Positions 1,659 through 22,640 of a DNA stretch of 40,302 nt are shown here, piece after piece. The number at the start of each line of letters is the position of its first letter. Positions within the stretch are counted from its first letter, which is position 1. Origin of the DNA: a virus (lineage: Duplodnaviria > Heunggongvirae > Uroviricota > Caudoviricetes); the IMG/VR virus record IMGVR_UViG_2654588006_000003; one strand, given 5' to 3'. The notes beneath the pieces are model-generated. The model was given only the letters and a program-made list of their open reading frames with translations. It had not been told where the DNA came from and did no database searches. The translations under genes and the position numbers were made by a program.

Positions 1659-4130
1659 TTAAGAATCAGCCTGACTCGGGATCAGTTTTTGCCAGATAAC
1701 TGAAACGTATTTTGCCTGGTAACGGGCGTCATCAAGTGCATTATGGCGCTCACCTTCGAATGGAATAGCCGTTCTGGCATCGAAGTCTATGGCTTTCCCC
1801 AGCTCAACGATTGTGCGTACATCGCGATCGTTGTAGTAACGCCACGGGCAGGGGATCCCCTGCCGTTCGTATGAACGGCGCAAAATCGTGTTGTCGAAGT
1901 TGGCTCCATTTCCCCAAACCTGAACAAAAAATTCACCGGAGTTTTCGTCGATAAATTCTCGCAATTGTAACAGTGCATCATCTAACGGGATTTCATCGGT
2001 CATAATGGCAGATTGCGCTTCGCGTGATTGCTTAAGCCACCATTTAATGGTGTCCCGATCAATGACTCCGCCAGCAGTTTCCAGATCGATAGTCTTACTA
2101 AATTCCGGTCCCATATCTCCGGTTTGCGGATCGAAAAATATTGCACCTATTGAGATGATCGGGGCATCAGGATTTTTTCCCATGGTTTCAAGGTCGATCA
2201 TTAGATGGTCACACGTCCTGCTGGTGGATGTGATTTCGTGATGACCGTTCACCTTAATTGGGTGATCTGCCGTCTCGCCAGTTTCATTATCGCTATTGTG
2301 ATGCTGATTGCCGCCAGTGTTCTCCTTGTGTGGATGTTCAGCGCCTTCCATTTCCTCCGGATCATCTTCCTGAACTTCAACCTGATACTCTTCATCGAAT
2401 GTTTCTTGGTATGTTGCGTCGCCCATCACCGCGCCACAATCAGGGCAGTTGCCGCCGCCGGTCTGACCGCAGGCGGTGCAGACTTTTTCCACTTCCTGTT
2501 GCGCTACTGGTTCAGGCTGTTTCGTTTCTGGCTCGTTTTGTAACGCATTTGGACTGTTTTGTTCCGCTTTTTGGTAGTTCCGTTCCGATTCATGCTGGTT
2601 CTGGTTCACAGAATCGCGGGTCTGGAGCCCCTTAACCCATTTCGGATCATTCGGGTCACTAATCCCTTCAACAAATTCACCACGTGATGCAGCAAGCAAC
2701 TTATCGGCGTCAGGCTGGCTGATATTGGCTGCCTGCATAATTTTGTTTACTTCGTCAGCGGTAACTTTTATCGGCTCTGGTTGTTCTGAATCTTCAGCGG
2801 TATCTACATTTTGCGGTAAGCCCGTGTATGTGCCATTTTTTCGGGCAAAATATTCTTCTTTTGTGATTTCAGTGGCGCCAGCAGCCAGTGCCTTATCCAG
2901 ACCAGAGAGTTTGTTTGCGCGACCGTATTTTTCTCCGTCCTTATCTGCGAAGAGGAAATAGAACGGCCCCTCACGCTCTACAGATGGTTCAGCTTCCGGC
3001 GCGGTTTCATTTTTTGGGATATCAGATACCTCAGTTTCCACTGCATCAGTTTGTGTTTCTGATGACTGGAGAACATCAACAGTGCCCAGGTCTGTTTCTT
3101 CATTCTCAAACACGCCCTTTGTCGTCAGGTATTCGCAGATATATTTGTTCAGTGCTACGGGATCTTTGTGAATGTCGATCGGACGCTCACGGACAAGGCC
3201 AAAAATAGTTTGGCGGTCGTAGCGAAGGGCATCAGGCTGTTTGCGCATTGATGCCGAGATACGCTTCCAGTCTTCGCGGTCGTTGTCGATAACTTCTTTT
3301 TTTGCCCAGCGATGGATGCTGCCGTCAATGTTTCCGGCATCCACATCACTAGGCCAGAGAGCGTAGGCCAGTTCGTCATCCAGTGTTTTCCATGTCTGCT
3401 TGTATTCGCGATGAATGGCAGCAATGACCGGGCTGATTTTTCCTGTTGAATTTTCAGTGTACTGTTGATTGGCTCTGGCGCGGGCGAGATCAACAACAGA
3501 CGTGTATTTTCCGGTTTCCTTGCGTTCACCTTCGCGACGTTTTTTCCAGATGCGCATCTCTGCCTGAATTTCGGGCCATTTAGCACCAGGAATACATTTA
3601 TGCTTAACCCACCCAATGGCGTGCAACTTAAGCTCCGGATACATGGCGTTAACTTCTGGCATTTTCATCAACGCTTCAACGATATGTCCGTCGAATGTTG
3701 CCATGTCTTCCTGCAACAATTCCTGTGCGCTAATAACCATATCAACGGTGATGTTTTCACATGTGTCGAACTTAACCATGACAGCGTTCTGTACTTCAGG
3801 GGCCAGCTTGTCAAAAGTGACGTTCATCGGATCGGATTCAGTCTCAACCGGGACAAAAGAAGCAGACTCCTCATCCCAGCGGTTTTCCTGCATATATTCA
3901 GCATCCCATGAATCGAGGGCAGGGCGGGGTATGCCAGGTTTATCCTCGCAGACAATAAATTTATAAGCGCAGTCCTGAGCAGCCGGATAATGTTCCAGGA
4001 ATTGCCAGTGAAATTTTGCTCGAGCACGGCGTTCGTCGCCAGCTTCAATGGCTGTGGCTACAGCCACAGCGCCTTCTTCCCTTGTTGCCAGTTCGTCAGG
4101 AATAGCGGCGCAAATAAAGACTTTACTCAT
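1659..4130 (-). CDS. ydfE: Exonuclease family protein, full-length ydfE-like, with C-terminal DnaQ/DEDDh 3'-5' exonuclease domain
   Basis: ORF track 1659..4166; start placed at internal ATG 4130 (MSKVFICAAIP) with upstream GAGG. C-terminus carries Exo I (MIDLETMG), Exo II (VWGNGANFDNT) and Exo III (HNALDDARYQAKY) motifs; central CxxC...CPDC zinc ribbon. N-terminus matches K-12 YdfE as recalled. Confidence 0.8.
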   Translation of the reverse strand: MSKVFICAAIPDELATREEGAVAVATAIEAGDERRARAKFHWQFLEHYPAAQDCAYKFIVCEDKPGIPRPALDSWDAEYMQENRWDEESASFVPVETESDPMNVTFDKLAPEVQNAVMVKFDTCENITVDMVISAQELLQEDMATFDGHIVEALMKMPEVNAMYPELKLHAIGWVKHKCIPGAKWPEIQAEMRIWKKRREGERKETGKYTSVVDLARARANQQYTENSTGKISPVIAAIHREYKQTWKTLDDELAYALWPSDVDAGNIDGSIHRWAKKEVIDNDREDWKRISASMRKQPDALRYDRQTIFGLVRERPIDIHKDPVALNKYICEYLTTKGVFENEETDLGTVDVLQSSETQTDAVETEVSDIPKNETAPEAEPSVEREGPFYFLFADKDGEKYGRANKLSGLDKALAAGATEITKEEYFARKNGTYTGLPQNVDTAEDSEQPEPIKVTADEVNKIMQAANISQPDADKLLAASRGEFVEGISDPNDPKWVKGLQTRDSVNQNQHESERNYQKAEQNSPNALQNEPETKQPEPVAQQEVEKVCTACGQTGGGNCPDCGAVMGDATYQETFDEEYQVEVQEDDPEEMEGAEHPHKENTGGNQHHNSDNETGETADHPIKVNGHHEITSTSRTCDHLMIDLETMGKNPDAPIISIGAIFFDPQTGDMGPEFSKTIDLETAGGVIDRDTIKWWLKQSREAQSAIMTDEIPLDDALLQLREFIDENSGEFFVQVWGNGANFDNTILRRSYERQGIPCPWRYYNDRDVRTIVELGKAIDFDARTAIPFEGERHNALDDARYQAKYVSVIWQKLIPSQADS

Positions 4131-8945: not shown

Positions 8946-10007
8946 AACCCACTGGATTATTTTTATGAAAGAGGCATCCAGTGAGTAGATTCGTAAGGCT
9001 ACAGATACGTATATCTGAATAATTAAATTCAGTTCTGTAAATAAAATTTAATCCTTAACCGGATGGATTTCTGCACCCTCAGAACATCAGGAGGCCGCCC
9101 GAAAGGGCGGTAGTGAAATGCGAAAGTTCAAAATTATTATTGAAACGGGAATAGCTGGTGGAGATTTTGAGGATGTATTCGAAGTGGACGATGACGCAAC
9201 ACCTGAGGAAATTCATGACGGAGCATAAGAAATTTTCTTTAACTACTGCAATTACTCATACCACGAAATAAAAGACGATGAGGAAGAACAAAGTGGCTGA
9301 TTTTTGTTCAGCTAAATATAACATCAGTTTTGAAGAGCGGGATGAACTATTAATGGACTATGGTGAGTTACGCGGTGGAAGTGCTGCTGATGTCGAATCC
9401 TAGCGTGATGACTATGAAGCGGGAAAAACTCCGGTCGAAGCATATTGTGATGAGTGGGGCGATGAATGAGCGAGATTAATTATCAGGAAGGGCATGAAAC
9501 GGCGGGGCAAGCAAAACCAGTGGCATGGCGATATCGCTACGTGAAAAAAGGCGTTACGGACTTTCAGGGGAAGTAGTGGTCTGGTGACTGGAAATATGTA
9601 CCGAAAAAAGAGGATTGTAACGACAGGCCGAACTATCAAATTCAGGCCTTATTCACTGCCTCACCAGTCCCAGTTACATCAGAAGAACTGGTTAAAGCTG
9701 TGCACTTTTATGAACAACTAAAACGCGAAAATCCACCAACATCCGGCAACTAGATTAATGGATTAACTATGTCGGTTAAACGACCAGCCAACTGAAAAAG
9801 CGGAAACCTGATTACAGGTTGCCAGATAAGGCAATGAGCTACCTGGCGCGGAACGGACTGATAAGTATGGGGAATGTTTTACGATGAACCTTTAGACTAA
9901 AGAGTTTGTAACGCTATGTAAGTGATTTTTTCTGGTTTAGATATTTATATGTCCGGCCAAATTGAGGTGTGTTTAAATGTAATTGCACATTGATTGTAGG
10001 AGGAATA

Positions 10008-10187: not shown

Positions 10188-10521
10188 ATACAGCGAACTC
10201 CATTGGTTTAGTTGGATATTTACTGTGCTGGACAAAAACGGTTTGCGGGGAAATCTTAGTTAAGTAGAATGACTGCGGGTGCTTGAGGCTATCTGCCTCG
10301 GGCATGGACACCAACGGCAGATAGAGAAAAGCCCCAGTTAACATTACGCGTCCTGCAAGACGCTTAACATTAATCTGAGGCCAATTTCATGCTAGACACA
10401 TGTAGGTTAGCCTCTTACGTGCCGAAAGGCACGGAGAAGCAGGCTATTGTTAACACCAAGCTGTAATGTCCCCTTTGAACCATTCTAAAATGTCCCCAGA
10501 CAATTCTCTGGGGGATTTTTC

Positions 10522-11004
10522 ATGATCAAAGAGACTGTTACGATGAGTCATAAGGAACTCCACCGACTTCAGATTATTCAGGAACAAGCTGCGGCACGCA
10601 TTGGCATTTCTATTCGGCAGGTTAAACGTCTGGTGCAACGGTATAGAAATGAAGGGCCTTCTGGTCTGGTTTCCCACCGACGTGGAAAGCGTCCTAATAA
10701 TTCCTTTTCTACTGAATTCAGAGCAACAGTAATTTCACTCCTCAAAGGCCGTTACGCTGATTTTGGACCTACGTTTGCGTGCGAAAAATTGCGCGAGATA
10801 CACGGTTTATCTTTATCCGTTGAAACTCTCAGAAAGTGGATGATAGAAGAGGGGTTATGGCGTGAACGCCGTCGTAAAATTGCCCGTATATATCAACGCC
10901 GCATGCGACGACCATCTTACGGTGAACTGATCCAGATTGATGGCTCACCTCATGACTGGTTTGAAAATCGAGGCCCCCAGATGTACACTGATCGTTTTCA
11001 TTGA
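10522..11004 (+). CDS. Transposase N-terminal part (HTH domain), frame 1
   Basis: ORF track; HTH-like AARIGISIRQVKRLVQRY; ends shortly after IQIDGSPHDWFENRGP. Confidence 0.7.
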   Translation: MIKETVTMSHKELHRLQIIQEQAAARIGISIRQVKRLVQRYRNEGPSGLVSHRRGKRPNNSFSTEFRATVISLLKGRYADFGPTFACEKLREIHGLSLSVETLRKWMIEEGLWRERRRKIARIYQRRMRRPSYGELIQIDGSPHDWFENRGPQMYTDRFH

Positions 11005-11836
11005 TGATGCCACCAGTGCGTTGATGGCGTTGCGTTTTGTGCCTGCTGAAACAACCCGGGCTTACATGGAAACCCTCCGGGGTTACCTTAATGATCATGG
11101 CGTACCGCTCGCTCTCTACTCTGATAGACACAGTATATTCAGGGTAAATAACCCAGAGCGGGAAGGTGAGCTGACCCAGTTCACTCGTGCGATAAAGACA
11201 CTGGGCATCGAGCCAATCCATGCCAACAGCCCGCAGGCAAAAGGGCGGGTAGAGCGCGCCAATCAGACACTACAGGACAGGCTGGTCAAAGAAATGCGGC
11301 TTCAGAATATCAGTGATATTGAAACAGCAAATGCATGGTTGCCGACCTTTATTGAAGCCTATAACAACCGGTTCGCTACGTCGCCTCGTACTACTGATAA
11401 TGCTCATCTTGATGTGCACCATTCTGAAGAGGAACTGGGTTATATCTTCAGCCTACAGGCGAAGCGCGTTCTGTCTAAAAATCTCACTTTCCAGTACAAA
11501 AGCAGTGCGTTTCAGGTACGCAGTGAGGGCCGGGGATATCGACTTAGGCATTCGGTTGTTACTGTATGCGAGAACTTTGACGGTGAAATTAACGTTCTGT
11601 ATGACGGGAAAGCGCTGGGCTGGGAAAAGTATGTTGATGGCCCGGAGCCTATACCACTGGATGATGAAAAGAGTGTCCATGAACGAGTGGATAATGCCCG
11701 TATTGATTTACGCTCAAAATACTATGTTAAACCTAAAGCTGACCATCCCTGGCTTACGCGCCGAACGCAAAGTCATCAGCAAGTTAAGCCCCCGAAGTTA
11801 CCTAAAAAGAAGCCTGATCCCGATAAAAAAGATTGA
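10937..11836 (+). CDS. Transposase catalytic part (rve/DDE core and C-terminal domain), frame 2
   Basis: ORF track; motifs CTLIVFIDDATS, LYSDRHSIF and SPQAKGRVERANQTL typical of retroviral-integrase-like DDE transposases; continuity with the upstream ORF needs a 1-nt frame change in the C5 run at 10974..10978. Confidence 0.7.
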   Translation: MMAHLMTGLKIEAPRCTLIVFIDDATSALMALRFVPAETTRAYMETLRGYLNDHGVPLALYSDRHSIFRVNNPEREGELTQFTRAIKTLGIEPIHANSPQAKGRVERANQTLQDRLVKEMRLQNISDIETANAWLPTFIEAYNNRFATSPRTTDNAHLDVHHSEEELGYIFSLQAKRVLSKNLTFQYKSSAFQVRSEGRGYRLRHSVVTVCENFDGEINVLYDGKALGWEKYVDGPEPIPLDDEKSVHERVDNARIDLRSKYYVKPKADHPWLTRRTQSHQQVKPPKLPKKKPDPDKKD

Positions 11837-12272
11837 AACCAAGATCGATTCGGTTGAGTGCATATCCATTCATAGGGTAGATTCTTAAGTCGCGTTTCTG
11901 GTGTTCATTTTCGGGTGGTTTGTTACTTGTTTTACCGGGGATATGCCAGAAACGCGCTGAGTCAGTCTGGGCGGTGCGCGTAATGAGGCGTTATGGTAAA
12001 TAGCCTATGCTAATGTCCGCTAAGAGCAAGAAGCGGAAGTTGGCAGTTTTGTGGACTGTCCCCACAAAAGTGACTACAGAAATAGTTGCAATTCATAATT
12101 GATCATGGGTTGTCAGTTAAACTCGTGGCGATTTAAATAGACTAATTGGGAGTGCGTCCATTACTTATATCTTGTAATGTTAACTATCAGAAATGATACA
12201 AAGATAATATGTCTTTAAAGAAAAGGCTGATGGCGAAAAGTGGCCCGATGAGGGCCACAATACGGCTGTCAC

Positions 12273-12605
12273 TTAGACGTAAATATCAATGGTGCCAGCG
12301 GTATTTGTATCGTCTTTTTTCTCTTCTTTTTTATCAGGCTGAACTGTCGCGTCTTCATTCTTTTTCTCTGCCTGCTGCCTTAACAACTGCTCCAGTTGAG
12401 CCCAGAGGCTTTCAATTTGCTTCTGTACCAATGCAGCCATTTCTTTTTTCTGCTGTGTCGTCATCCCCTCTTCCGATGAGATTTTCCCAAGCTTTTCAGT
12501 CAGCACCTGAATTTGTCTTGTGATTTTGGCTATTTCTGATGTTCCTTCCGGGGCGGAGTTGTTTGAAATAACGGTTGAGGTATTTCCCTGAATTGTGACA
12601 GACAT
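12273..12605 (-). CDS. flxA: FlxA (110 aa), flagellar-regulon protein
   Basis: ORF track; sequence recognised; sigma-28-type promoter immediately upstream. Confidence 0.85.
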   Translation of the reverse strand: MSVTIQGNTSTVISNNSAPEGTSEIAKITRQIQVLTEKLGKISSEEGMTTQQKKEMAALVQKQIESLWAQLEQLLRQQAEKKNEDATVQPDKKEEKKDDTNTAGTIDIYV

Positions 12606-12627
12606 AGATTTCTCCTTTTAAAAAAGC

Positions 12628-12655
12628 ACTATCGGCATGCACAAAAAAATCTTTA
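12628..12655 (-). promoter_or_regulatory. Sigma-28 (FliA) type promoter for flxA
   Basis: Minus strand reads TAAAG - 15 nt - GCCGATAG about 20 nt upstream of the flxA start, matching the TAAA-N15-GCCGATAA consensus. Confidence 0.65.
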
Positions 12656-12807
12656 ATCGTATTTCTTGTGTCATTAATTGTTTGATGTTCAGATTGTTTT
12701 CCTCGCGGGCTGGCGCGCCTCAGAAAGTAAAGCTTGTTGACAGGGGTAAACGTTCGGCAATAATTTTCTGCCGCATGCGGGTGTTGCATAAAACGTGTTA
12801 CGTTCCT

Positions 12808-13113
12808 TTATCGACAGGTCAGGTCACCGCTCACCCGCCGACGAGAAAGCAACACTGACATGCTAAAGCAAAAAATAGATGAATAAGTTGAGTTGTGCAT
12901 ATGTAGCCTGACCGTCACAAAGTATATGGTGTCTGTACCAGTAAGATGATGGCCGGACTCTTTAAAAACGAGCTGACCTGCACAATACAGGATGGACTTA
13001 GCAATGGCTGCTCCTGGCACAAAGCGGACAGTGATCACCGTTCTTACGACTACTTTCTGACTTCCTTCGTGACTTGCCCTAAGCATGTTGTAGTGCGATA
13101 CTTGTAATGACAT
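12808..13113 (-). CDS. ydfV: YdfV-like hypothetical ORF (101 aa)
   Basis: ORF of matching size and position between flxA and relB; overlaps the relBE promoter region; possibly not a real gene. Confidence 0.3.
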   Translation of the reverse strand: MSLQVSHYNMLRASHEGSQKVVVRTVITVRFVPGAAIAKSILYCAGQLVFKESGHHLTGTDTIYFVTVRLHMHNSTYSSIFCFSMSVLLSRRRVSGDLTCR

Positions 13114-13126
13114 TTGTAATTACAAG
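13101..13126 (+). promoter_or_regulatory. relBE operator (palindromic repeats)
   Basis: cttgtaatgacatttgtaattacaag immediately upstream of relB; ttgtaat/attacaa inverted repeats. Confidence 0.6.
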
Positions 13127-13137
13127 AGGTGTAAGAC

Positions 13138-13377
13138 ATGGGTAGCATTAACCTGCGTATTGACGATGAACTTAAAGCGCGTTCTTACGCCGCGCTTGAA
13201 AAAATGGGTGTAACTCCTTCTGAAGCGCTTCGTCTCATGCTCGAGTATATCGCTGACAATGAACGCTTGCCGTTCAAACAGACACTCCTGAGTGATGAAG
13301 ATGCTGAACTTGTGGAGATAGTGAAAGAACGGCTTCGTAATCCTAAGCCAGTACGTGTGACGCTGGATGAACTCTGA
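13138..13377 (+). CDS. relB: RelB antitoxin (79 aa)
   Basis: ORF track; sequence MGSINLRIDDELKARSYA... recognised; stop overlaps relE start (TGATG). Confidence 0.95.
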   Translation: MGSINLRIDDELKARSYAALEKMGVTPSEALRLMLEYIADNERLPFKQTLLSDEDAELVEIVKERLRNPKPVRVTLDEL

Positions 13378-13664
13378 TGGCGTATTTTCTGGATTTTGAC
13401 GAGCGGGCACTAAAGGAATGGCGAAAGCTGGGCTCGACGGTACGTGAACAGTTGAAAAAGAAGCTGGTTGAAGTACTTGAGTCACCCCGGATTGAAGCAA
13501 ACAAGCTCCGTGGTATGCCTGATTGTTACAAGATTAAGCTCCGGTCTTCAGGCTATCGCCTTGTATACCAGGTTATAGACGAGAAAGTTGTCGTTTTCGT
13601 GATTTCTGTTGGGAAAAGAGAACGCTCGGAAGTATATAGCGAGGCGGTCAAACGCATTCTCTGA
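13377..13664 (+). CDS. relE: RelE mRNA interferase toxin (95 aa)
   Basis: ORF track; sequence recognised; coupled to relB. Confidence 0.95.
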   Translation: MAYFLDFDERALKEWRKLGSTVREQLKKKLVEVLESPRIEANKLRGMPDCYKIKLRSSGYRLVYQVIDEKVVVFVISVGKRERSEVYSEAVKRIL

Positions 13665-13735
13665 ACCAAAGCATGACATCTCTGTTTCGCACCGAAGGTG
13701 ACACTTCTGCTTTGCGTTGACAGGAGAAGCAGGCT

Positions 13736-13891
13736 ATGAAGCAGCAAAAGGCGATGTTAATCGCCCTGATCGTCATCTGTTTAACCGTCATAGTGACGGC
13801 ACTGGTAACGAGGAAAGACCTCTGCGAGGTACGAATCCGAACCGGCCAGACGGAGGTCGCTGTCTTCACAGCTTACGAACCTGAGGAGTAA
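13736..13891 (+). CDS. hokD: HokD (RelF) Hok-family membrane toxin (51 aa)
   Basis: Hand translation MKQQKAMLIALIVICLTVIVTALVTRKDLCEVRIRTGQTEVAVFTAYEPEE; below ORF-track cut-off. Confidence 0.85.
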   Translation: MKQQKAMLIALIVICLTVIVTALVTRKDLCEVRIRTGQTEVAVFTAYEPEE

Positions 13892-13959
13892 GAGACCCGG
13901 CGGGGGAGAAATCCCTCGCCACCTCTGATGTGGCAGGCATCCTCAACGCACCCGCACTT

Positions 13960-13986
13960 AACCCGCTTCGGCGGGTTTTTGTTTTT
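13960..13986 (+). terminator. Rho-independent terminator after relBE-hokD
   Basis: cccgc-ttcg-gcggg stem-loop followed by a T-run. Confidence 0.65.
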
Positions 13987-20783: not shown

Positions 20784-20864
20784 CTTGGTGTCTATTCGAT
20801 GGATACTCACATACTACGGTAACATCATGAAAAAAATCATAGTTTTTTTAACTCTGAACCAGCA

Positions 20865-22419: not shown

Positions 22420-22640
22420 TTACGGGTCCTTTCCGGTGATCCGACAGGTTACGGGGCGGCGACCTCGCGGGTTTTCGCTATTTATGAAAATTTTCCGGTT
22501 TAAGGCGTTCCGTTCTTCTTCGTCATAACTTAATGTTTTTATTTAAAATACCCCCTGAAAAGAAAGGAAACGACAGGTGCTGAAAACGAGCTTTTGGGCC
22601 TCTGTCGTTTCCTTTCTCTGTTTTTGGCCGTGGAATGAAC
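22420..22640 (+). other. Lambda-type cohesive end site (cosQ-cosN-cosB)
   Basis: Sequence ...ccgacaggttacg/GGGCGGCGACCT/cgcgggttttcgctatttatgaaaattttccgg... matches the joined lambda right and left ends; 12-nt cohesive end at 22454..22465; lies about 190 bp upstream of Nu1. Confidence 0.85.

What the first reader, a model, noticed from the sequence alone, without database searches (positions are those of the whole stretch)
10522..11836. Transposase gene needs a frame change at a C5 homopolymer
The HTH part and the DDE/rve part of the transposase are in different frames. Removing one C from the run ggccccc (10974..10978) would give a continuous protein reading ...HDWFENRGP-RCTLIVFIDDATS.... 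This is either an inactivating insertion, a sequencing artefact at a homopolymer, or a slippery site controlling transposase level.
Basis: seen in the sequence. Interest (0 to 1): 0.35.

Follow-up and report, generated by a model that had tools for sequence, protein, structure and literature searches.

The report
Broken transposase gene, one extra C
The transposase gene of a known mobile element in an E. coli prophage is split by one extra C that no other sequenced copy has, so it is a private inactivating mutation or a sequencing error, not a regulatory frameshift; the gene turns out to sit inside a 3.3-kb transposon that carries the relBE toxin-antitoxin genes and inserts at the start codon of hok toxin genes.

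Summary
ORF1 (10522-11004, HTH) and ORF2 (10937-11836, DDE) are two halves of one ISEsa1-type (IS1202-family) transposase. They are separated by a run of five C at 10974-10978, and removing one C gives a 437-aa protein.

The "slippery site" reading is not supported:
- All 801 places in 790 complete E. coli genomes differ from a 61-bp probe around the run by one base. All 25 copies fetched have C4.
- No GTDB species representative has the C5 string.
- Intact copies encode a single 446-aa ORF.
- The shift needed is +1, and it falls between catalytic D149 and D210/E253, so neither ORF is functional alone.

The extra C is therefore a private inactivating insertion or an assembly error. Only reads or resequencing can separate the two.

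The copy was already damaged. Like many E. coli Qin copies, it lacks 27 bp that encode the first helix of HTH1.

The gene lies in a 3,275-bp transposon (10448-13722) with:
- TGT...ACA ends and 19/26 inverted repeats;
- passenger genes flxA, ydfV and relBE;
- a perfect 15-bp target duplication at the hokD start codon.

Independent insertions in other hok-family genes and syntenic empty sites confirm this structure. I found no description of it in the papers searched.

The parts
10277..10448 (+). hok/sok-type leader (sok/mok region). It is the 5' part of the hokD locus, cut off from hokD by the insertion.
   Evidence: Rfam RF01794 sok, 104.1 bits (gathering score 59), E=1e-23, full model 1-157. 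The model's final AUG aligns to window 10446-10448, which reads ATT.
10433..10447 (+). Left copy of the 15-bp target-site duplication, GGAGAAGCAGGCTAT.
   Evidence: Identical to 13723-13737. The sequence is present once in the empty sites of E. coli C and B/BL21.
10448..10473 (+). Left terminal inverted repeat, TGTTAACACCAAGCTGTAATGTCCCC (starts 5'-TGT).
   Evidence: 19/26 match to the reverse complement of 13697-13722. Identity among copies in different contexts jumps from about 75% to about 100% at this point.
10479..10497 (+). Subterminal repeat of the inner part of IRL (ACCATTCTAAAATGTCCCC), 24 bp after the first copy at 10455-10473. Probably a second transposase-binding site.
   Evidence: Direct repeat family D3. 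The right end has a comparable second copy in mirror position. The IS1202 family is described as having such sites (PMC10132070).
10522..11004 (+). Transposase ORF1: HTH1 (damaged), HTH2 and the first catalytic Asp (IQIDGS). It ends after 9 out-of-frame codons (QMYTDRFH*).
10577..10578 (+). Site of a 27-bp in-frame deletion (9 codons, QESINRHIT) relative to intact copies, flanked by a TCAGGA direct repeat.
   Evidence: Alignment with L003 and L004. In the intact protein HTH_28 covers profile positions 1-52 (46.8 bits); in the deleted form it covers only 16-52 (32.4 bits). 14 of 25 fetched copies lack the 27 bp.
10974..10978 (+). C5 run. It is C4 in every other copy examined. The extra C shifts the frame by +1.
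10979..11836 (+). Rest of the transposase in frame 2 (the mechanical ORF begins at 10937): D210, E253, Q260, beta-barrel and C-terminal parts.
   Evidence: NCBIfam NF033594 profile positions 143-365. Motif positions.
11687..11836 (+). The stretch annotated as 'ydfW' in E. coli K-12 and RefSeq. It is the last 49 codons of the transposase gene, in the same frame.
   Evidence: Annotations. The ORF is continuous over 437 aa in C4 copies. In K-12 a deletion from ydfX into tnp leaves only this tail.
12273..12605 (-). flxA, a passenger gene.
   Evidence: ORF. Annotation of syntenic loci. Carried with the element on plasmids.
12808..13113 (-). ydfV, a passenger gene.
   Evidence: ORF. Annotations.
13138..13664 (+). 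relB (13138-13377) and relE (13377-13664), a type II toxin-antitoxin pair carried as passengers and reading towards hokD.
   Evidence: ORFs. Annotations.
13697..13722 (-). Right terminal inverted repeat (+ strand GGTGACACTTCTGCTTTGCGTTGACA, ends ACA-3').
   Evidence: Identity with the plasmid copies L015 and L016 stops exactly after ...GTTGACA. 19/26 match to IRL. In 19 GTDB species representatives it mostly abuts a hok Shine-Dalgarno sequence and ATG.
13723..13737 (+). Right copy of the 15-bp target-site duplication. It supplies the hokD Shine-Dalgarno sequence and the 'AT' of its ATG.
13736..13891 (+). hokD (relF), the target gene. It is left intact with its own SD and ATG, but is now downstream of relBE instead of its sok/mok leader.
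   Evidence: ORF. Annotations. Empty-site comparison.

Best explanation
The two ORFs are one transposase gene of an ISEsa1-type element (IS1202 family, formerly ISNCY) that carries one extra C in a run that is C4 everywhere else.

**If the base is real.** It is a private, non-programmed +1-bp insertion. It truncates the protein after 160 residues and separates the first catalytic Asp (D149, intact numbering) from D210 and E253, so no active transposase is made.

**Earlier damage.** The copy had already lost 27 bp (9 codons) that encode the first helix of the N-terminal HTH. This lesion is shared with many E. coli Qin-prophage copies. The C5 change is therefore a second hit in a decaying copy, with no expected effect on the host.

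**The element.** The gene belongs to a 3,275-bp transposon (10448-13722) that carries flxA, ydfV and relBE. It is inserted, with a 15-bp duplication, at the start codon of hokD in the Qin prophage.

**Shown:**
- the split of one gene into two frames;
- the uniqueness of C5;
- the single ORF in intact copies;
- the positions of the DDE residues;
- the 27-bp deletion;
- the element's ends, target duplication and empty site.

**Inferred:**
- that the base is real rather than an assembly error;
- that the 27-bp deletion already impaired function.
For: - **One gene, two frames.** NF033594 profile positions 7-147 and 143-365 fall on the two ORFs. Pfam gives HTH domains for ORF1 and rve_3 for ORF2.
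- **Where the indel is.** The only indel against strain 7/2 and against plasmid copies lies in the C run.
- **C5 is unique.** A 61-bp probe finds 791 records and 801 places, all at 60/61 identity and none exact. All 25 fetched copies are C4. There is no exact C5 string in the 185,579 GTDB species representatives. No C5-specific product is on record in the gene index, tried with four start variants.
- **Intact copies have one ORF.** They encode a single 446-aa ORF annotated as WP_004196353.1.
- **Catalytic residues.** D149, D210, E253 and Q260 (= E+7) are spaced as in ISAjo2 (D142, D203, E247; PMC10132070). The frameshift comes after P161.
- **Assembly quality.** The window is not generally error-prone at homopolymers. 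Against six closest genomes over 25 kb it has only three 1-bp indels. One of them (T7 at 20842-20848) is a real allele shared with K-12. The lineage also has SNPs not seen in any fetched relative.
- **27-bp deletion.**
Against: - No reads are available, so a consensus error at GGCCCCC cannot be excluded.
- C5 and a second 1-bp indel (TT instead of TTT at 22507-22509, absent from 3,980 records) are both private. An indel-rich private spectrum (2 indels against about 6 SNPs in 25 kb) is what an indel-prone sequencing chemistry would also give.
- The C5-specific proteins are on record nowhere. This fits an artefact, or a single unsampled strain, equally well.
Confidence: 0.55

Rival explanations
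1. Sequencing or assembly artefact: the strain really has C4 and a continuous 437-aa ORF, and the extra C is a consensus error in a G+C homopolymer.
For: - C5 is found in no other sequence in any collection searched.
- A second private 1-bp homopolymer-length difference lies in the same 25 kb (22507-22509).
Against: - Longer runs in the window (T7/T8, A8) agree with relatives or with K-12, so there is no general homopolymer problem.
- The window also carries SNPs absent from every fetched relative, so private differences are expected in this lineage.
- The gene is already decaying, so a real second lesion would be unremarkable.
Confidence: 0.38
2. Programmed +1 ribosomal frameshift (or transcriptional slippage) at CCC-C that sets the ratio of a short HTH protein to full-length transposase.
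For: - From general knowledge: CCC-C read by tRNA-Pro is a known +1-prone sequence in enterobacteria.
- From general knowledge: many IS families (IS1, IS3) use frameshifting between an HTH ORF and a catalytic ORF.
Against: - The site is not conserved. Every other copy is C4 with one ORF, including potentially active plasmid copies with both ends and target duplications.
- The IS1202-family survey describes a predicted transposase of 394-507 aa for each IS, and the word 'frameshift' does not occur in its text (PMC10132070).
- The direction is +1, not the -1 shift of IS1/IS3.
- The 0-frame A-site codon is the common CAG and the +1 codon is the rare AGA, so there is no pause element.
- From general knowledge: C5 is too short for efficient transcriptional slippage.
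- The split falls inside the catalytic domain, between D149 and D210, not at a domain boundary.
Confidence: 0.02
3. Two separately functional products: ORF1, a DNA-binding fragment, acts as a trans-inhibitor at the element's ends, and ORF2 is inert or has another role.
For: - ORF1 keeps HTH2 and most of HTH1.
- From general knowledge: truncated transposases can inhibit transposition in other IS families.
Against: - There is no conservation of the split.
- ORF1 lacks the first helix of HTH1 because of the 27-bp deletion.
- ORF2 has no Shine-Dalgarno sequence or ATG at a conserved position, and it lacks the first catalytic Asp.
Confidence: 0.05

Closest known systems
ISEsa1 (ISfinder; IS1202 family, formerly ISNCY/IS1202 group)
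   Same: - PGAP names the intact 446-aa protein 'IS1202-like element ISEsa1 family transposase'.
- The size fits the 439 aa listed for ISEsa1 if translation starts at Met8 (PMC10132070).
- The window gene is 100% identical in protein to the common Qin variant once one C is removed.
   Different: - The window copy has C5 and lacks 27 bp.
- ISEsa1 is listed as 1,609 bp with 15/22 inverted repeats and no target duplication. Here, copies that have two good ends (19/26) and a perfect 15-bp duplication are about 3.3 kb and include flxA, ydfV and relBE.
- A short form is seen only with an ncrY right flank and without a duplication.
- I could not read the ISfinder entry itself.
ISAjo2 group of the IS1202 family (targets dif/pdif sites)
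   Same: - TnsB-like DDE transposase with two N-terminal HTH domains.
- D-61-D-43/44-E spacing, and Q seven residues after E.
- 5'-TGT...ACA-3' ends and an extra internal binding-site repeat near each end.
- Orientation-specific insertion next to one kind of site (PMC10132070).
   Different: - The target is the translation-initiation region of hok-family genes, not a Xer site.
- The duplication is 15 bp, not 5 bp.
- The element carries four passenger genes.
Programmed frameshifting in IS1 and IS3 family transposase genes
   Same: An upstream HTH ORF and a downstream catalytic ORF in different frames. An IS3 copy with an annotated programmed frameshift lies next to the same element in strain E2865.
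   Different: In IS1 and IS3 the shift is -1 at a conserved A-rich heptamer with a downstream structure, present in all copies. Here the shift is +1 at a run found in this window only, and it falls inside the catalytic domain.
relBE-hokD (relBEF) operon and ydfW of E. coli K-12 Qin prophage
   Same: Same locus and same gene order. K-12 ydfW is the last 49 codons of this transposase gene.
   Different: K-12 has lost the hok leader, the left end and most of tnp through a deletion from ydfX into tnp. The window keeps the whole element.

Membership tests
IS1202 family (ISEsa1 subgroup) | Large single-ORF DDE transposase (394-507 aa) with N-terminal HTH domains and an RNase H fold. | tested here: not met
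   The window copy is split by the extra C into 160-aa and 299-aa ORFs. NF033594 matches both halves. So this is a disrupted member by descent, not a functional one.
IS1202 family (ISEsa1 subgroup) | DDE triad with family spacing and Q at the seventh position after E. | tested here: met
   D149, D210, E253 and Q260 in intact numbering. ISAjo2 has D142, D203 and E247, and the Q rule comes from PMC10132070. In the window the triad is spread over two frames.
IS1202 family (ISEsa1 subgroup) | Outer ends 5'-TGT and ACA-3' with imperfect terminal inverted repeats of about 22-29 bp. | tested here: met
   TGT at 10448-10450 and ACA at 13720-13722, with 19/26 matching. This holds for the 3.3-kb unit. 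A brute-force search for 22-nt inverted ends about 1.6 kb apart gave at most 14/22.
IS1202 family (ISEsa1 subgroup) | A second, internal transposase-binding repeat near each end. | tested here: met
   Left: 10455-10473 and 10479-10497, 24 bp apart. Right: GTGTCACC and GATGTCATG in mirror position. This is sequence evidence only; binding was not tested.
IS1202 family (ISEsa1 subgroup) | Target-site duplication of a characteristic length (3-5/6, 16-17 or 27-28 bp; none reported for ISEsa1). | tested here: inconclusive
   A perfect 15-bp duplication occurs in four independent insertions. This is one base shorter than the 16-17-bp class and contradicts 'none detected' for ISEsa1.
Programmed-frameshift transposase genes (IS1/IS3 type, or prfB-type +1) | The shift site and two-ORF layout are conserved among copies and relatives. 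| tested here: not met
   None of the 801 E. coli places matches the C5 probe exactly, all 25 fetched copies are C4, and no GTDB species representative has the C5 string.
Programmed-frameshift transposase genes (IS1/IS3 type, or prfB-type +1) | A slippery motif with a pause element (rare or stop codon in the A site, or a downstream structure or upstream SD). | tested here: not met
   The sequence read directly is GGC CCC CAG A. CAG is a common codon, there is no stop, and the +1 codon is the rare AGA. A downstream RNA structure was not examined.
Programmed-frameshift transposase genes (IS1/IS3 type, or prfB-type +1) | Full-length fusion protein produced from the shifted gene. | not testable with these tools
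   This needs a reporter assay or a western blot.

The most novel reading that the evidence does not exclude
The broken gene is the transposase of a mobile element that has not been correctly delimited before. It is an IS1202-family 'transporter' transposon of about 3.3 kb carrying flxA-ydfV-relBE.

The element inserts in one orientation, with a 15-bp duplication, exactly at the Shine-Dalgarno/start-codon region of hok-family toxin genes (hokD, pndA, F/R1-type hok and hokE-like).

Insertion cuts hok off from its sok/mok control region and places it behind relBE. That would explain how the K-12 relBE-hokD operon arose, and why ISEsa1 was recorded with poor inverted repeats and no target duplication.

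The structure itself is well supported. The uncertain part is whether it is undescribed, and whether the element is still active.
Probability: 0.55. Interest if true: 0.55.

Novelty: already known. Interest (0 to 1): 0.22.

Why it matters
The frameshift itself matters little. It is one more lesion, or a base-calling error, in a decaying copy of a known insertion-sequence transposase, and it should simply be annotated as a pseudogene.

The work has practical value in three ways:
- It removes a candidate recoding site.
- It shows that 'ydfW' is the tail of this transposase gene. RefSeq's 'missing C-terminus' label on the C4 copies coincides with the separate annotation of ydfW rather than with any lesion.
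- It reveals the surrounding unit: a site-specific transposon that moves a type II toxin-antitoxin pair into type I (hok) toxin loci on prophages and on IncF and IncI plasmids.

If the third point holds up, it gives the IS1202 family a second defined target besides dif sites, and an experimentally tractable one. It also gives an origin for the classic relBEF operon.

Tried and rejected
- **Short-form ends.** A brute-force search for 22-nt inverted ends about 1.6 kb apart, to recover the ISfinder 1,609-bp ISEsa1 ends, gave at most 14/22 and no convincing pair. The generic repeat finder on 10200-12300 also gave no terminal repeats.
- **Artefact test.** I compared 25 kb with the six closest genomes. 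Of the three 1-bp indels, the T7 run at 20842 is a real K-12-type allele. A 62-bp probe for that site returned nothing, probably because of the low-complexity filter. The TT at 22507 is private. The test is inconclusive.
- **Finding the source strain or other C5 carriers.** The exact C5 string is absent from GTDB species representatives. Four start variants of the C5-specific products are not on record. A look-up with a neighbouring protein returned thousands of genomes, because the private SNP there does not change the protein.
- **hok remnant at the right junction.** I considered that the sequence right of 12041 might be a hok remnant. Translation by eye shows no Hok-like peptide, so I rejected this.
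- **hok leader as part of the element.** I considered that the conserved hok-like sequence left of the element belongs to the element. I rejected this because identity among contexts is about 75% there and about 100% from 10448 onward, and because empty sites exist.
- **Literature.** Searches for ISEsa1, IS1202, hokD/relBE/transposon and flxA/ydfV found no description of the 3.3-kb unit or of hok targeting. The library lacks most subscription journals, including the 1999 paper on chromosomal hok genes.

Full report
**1. The observation**

The window reads ...TTT GAA AAT CGA GGC CCC CAG ATG TAC..., with five C at 10974-10978. Mechanical ORF listing gives 10522-11004 (160 aa, frame 1) and 10937-11836 (299 aa from a TTG, frame 2).

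ORF1 matches Pfam HTH_32, HTH_29, HTH_28 and HTH_23. ORF2 matches rve_3. Both match the same NCBIfam model, NF033594 'ISNCY family transposase', at adjoining profile positions: 7-147 and 143-365 of 368.

Removing one C gives a continuous 437-aa protein with the junction ...ENRGP-RCTLIVFIDDATS....

**2. How the site looks in other copies**

The window is an E. coli Qin-type lambdoid prophage: int/xis, dicB, dicA/dicC, then the element, then rem, ydfU, cspB/F/I, the lysis genes, and head and tail genes.

A 1,551-bp query around the gene finds 788 complete E. coli genomes with a full-length copy. The best hits differ from the window by a single gap. Alignment puts that gap in the C run, C5 against C4.

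Evidence that C5 is unique:
- A 61-bp probe centred on the run finds 791 records and 801 places. Every one is at 60/61 identity and none is exact.
- All 25 copies I fetched have C4. They come from E. coli chromosomes, an E. coli 'plasmid', Salmonella, Enterobacter and Phytobacter plasmids, and Shigella.
- The exact 35-nt C5 string is absent from one genome for each of 185,579 species.
- The four possible C5-specific gene products are not in the 153-billion-gene index.

The run is therefore not a conserved feature. It is private to this sequence.

**3. What the intact gene looks like**

Plasmid copies encode one 446-aa ORF (WP_004196353.1, 'IS1202-like element ISEsa1 family transposase'). Two motifs define the catalytic residues:
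- IQID(149)GS, LYSD(210)RH and GRVE(253)RANQTLQ(260) reproduce the spacing of ISAjo2 (D142, D203, E247).
- They also show the family-specific Q at E+7 described for the IS1202 family (PMC10132070).

The frameshift follows P161. ORF1 therefore carries the HTH domains and the first Asp, while ORF2 carries the other two catalytic residues. Neither can be a transposase alone.

The survey of the family describes a predicted transposase of 394-507 aa for each IS and does not mention frameshifting.

A programmed event here would have to be +1. The 0-frame codon after CCC is the common CAG and the +1 codon is the rare AGA, so there is no pause signal. From general knowledge, five C is too short for efficient transcriptional slippage. 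I therefore reject the slippery-site reading.

**4. An earlier lesion**

The window, and 14 of the 25 fetched copies, lack 27 bp after 10577. The missing segment is TCAGGAGTCAATTAATCGACATATTAC, flanked by a TCAGGA repeat.

This removes residues QESINRHIT. In the intact protein HTH_28 is matched over profile positions 1-52 (46.8 bits). In the deleted form only 16-52 is matched (32.4 bits), and HTH_23 falls just below its cut-off. So the first helix of HTH1 is gone, and the Qin copy was probably impaired before the extra C arose.

RefSeq marks these C4 copies as pseudogenes 'missing C-terminus' and annotates 'ydfW' separately. The ORF is in fact continuous, and ydfW (11687-11836) is simply its last 49 codons. 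In K-12 a deletion from ydfX into tnp leaves only that tail.

**5. Real mutation or artefact?**

Over 25 kb, against the six closest genomes, the window has six SNPs that none of the six shares and three 1-bp indels. All three indels are in homopolymers.
- T7 at 20842-20848 is a genuine allele shared with K-12.
- TT at 22507-22509 is absent from 3,980 records.
- C5 is absent everywhere.

Long runs are otherwise concordant, so the assembly is not generally homopolymer-poor. But two private indels against about six SNPs is also what an indel-prone chemistry would leave.

I cannot decide this without reads. I put a real mutation at about 0.55 and an artefact at about 0.38.

**6. What the gene belongs to**

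*Left junction.* I compared the left junction in five contexts: the window, E. coli E2865, F-type plasmids, a Phytobacter plasmid and a Salmonella IncI plasmid. Copies are about 100% identical from TGTTAACACC... (10448) rightwards. Immediately to the left they are only about 75% identical, and in every case that flank is a hok-type leader ending in its Shine-Dalgarno sequence and 'AT'. Rfam confirms this: the sok model matches 10277-10448 at 104 bits, and its final AUG falls on 10446-10448.

*Right junction.* Identity with the Salmonella and Enterobacter plasmid copies continues through flxA, ydfV, relB and relE. It stops exactly after ...GCGTTGACA (13722). After that point each context has its own hok-family gene: hokD, pndA or an R1/F-type hok.

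*Target duplications.* Each insertion is flanked by its own perfect 15-bp duplication:
- GGAGAAGCAGGCTAT in the window;
- TGGAGGGGCTATGAT in the Salmonella IncI plasmid;
- GGAGAAGAAGGCCAT in the Enterobacter asburiae plasmid;
- GGAGAAGAAGGCCAT again, next to a different hok, in L018 and L031.

*Ends.* The ends are 5'-TGT...ACA-3', match 19/26, and each has a second inner repeat in mirror position; the two left copies start 24 bp apart. These are the hallmarks listed for the IS1202 family.

*Other species.* In 19 species representatives the right end mostly abuts a hok SD-ATG, including a hokE-like gene.

*Empty sites.* The leader and hokD are contiguous, with one copy of the 15-mer, in E. coli C and B/BL21. 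In BL21 this is at the syntenic position DUF977-hokD-rem.

The unit in the window is therefore 3,275 bp (10448-13722). Intact relatives are 3,301-3,307 bp.

*Effect on hok.* Because the duplication contains the SD and 'AT', hokD keeps its own initiation region. It is, however, cut off from sok/mok and placed behind relBE.

*The ISfinder entry.* ISEsa1 is listed as 1,609 bp with 15/22 inverted repeats and no duplication. A short form ending near window 12041 occurs only next to ncrY and without a duplication. It may be a deletion derivative, but I did not resolve this.

*Literature.* I found no description of the 3.3-kb unit or of hok targeting in the papers available. The library lacks most subscription journals.

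**7. Verdict**

The finding as stated is ordinary. It is a private extra base, either a mutation or an error, in an already damaged copy of a known transposase gene, with no sign of recoding.

The surroundings are more interesting than the frameshift, and I report them as a lead. They form a site-specific IS1202-family transposon that carries relBE and targets hok start codons.

Noticed in passing
window 10448-13722 (with 15-bp repeats at 10433-10447 and 13723-13737): The transposase gene is the left part of a 3,275-bp transposon carrying flxA, ydfV, relB and relE. It is inserted at the hokD start codon with a perfect 15-bp duplication. Independent insertions in pndA and other hok genes each have their own duplication, and syntenic empty sites exist in E. 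coli C and B/BL21.
   Followed up: yes
window 10577/10578: A 27-bp in-frame deletion (9 codons, flanked by a TCAGGA repeat) relative to intact ISEsa1-type copies. It is shared by 14 of 25 fetched copies and removes the first helix of HTH1 according to Pfam coverage.
   Followed up: yes
window 11687-11836 (and the RefSeq annotations of L001, L006-L011): 'ydfW' is the last 49 codons of the transposase ORF. PGAP labels the upstream part 'pseudo, missing C-terminus' even where the 437-aa ORF is continuous.
   Followed up: yes
window about 12041; L004, L013, L014 right junctions: A short form of the element diverges from the long form after window 12041 and ends in ...GTTTGGTTGACG next to ncrY, without a target duplication. 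That end resembles the tip of the true right end (TTTGCGTTGACA). It may correspond to the 1,609-bp ISfinder ISEsa1 and may be a deletion derivative.
   Followed up: partly
window 20842-20848: A T7 run where the six closest genomes have T8. T8 gives a 76-aa YnfN, while T7 (as in K-12) shifts the frame near the start, leaving the shorter K-12-type product. It is a natural polymorphism, not an error.
   Followed up: partly
window 22507-22509: TT where 3,980 E. coli records have TTT, in the ynfO-nohA intergenic region. This is the window's only other private indel and is relevant to assembly quality.
   Followed up: partly
L026 (Citrobacter portucalensis) near 2540-2600; L030 (Kluyvera cryocrescens) near 3097-3160: In L026 the right end abuts an inverted hok leader, which suggests an inversion or head-to-head arrangement. 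In L030 it abuts a hokE-like ORF (MLTKYALVAIIV...).
   Followed up: no
L018 and L031: Copies of the element that are 6,093 bp long between the same ends and a 15-bp duplication. They evidently carry an extra insertion of about 2.8 kb, whose content was not examined.
   Followed up: no
window 10487-10520: A near-perfect hairpin (AAAATGTCCCCAGACAA / TTCTCTGGGGGATTTTT) immediately upstream of the transposase ATG, overlapping the inner transposase-site repeat. It is possibly a read-through terminator or a regulatory site.
   Followed up: no
window 13900-13981: A weak isrK-like Rfam hit (25 bits, below the gathering score of 50) just downstream of hokD. It is probably only the hok mRNA 3' stem-loop and terminator.
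   Followed up: no
window about 9119-9888 (from the annotation of L007-L011): In the closest relatives two short genes upstream of the element are annotated as pseudogenes (a DUF7167 gene with an internal stop, and a hypothetical gene with a frameshift and a stop). The region between the prophage replication genes and the hok leader is decaying in general.
   Followed up: no
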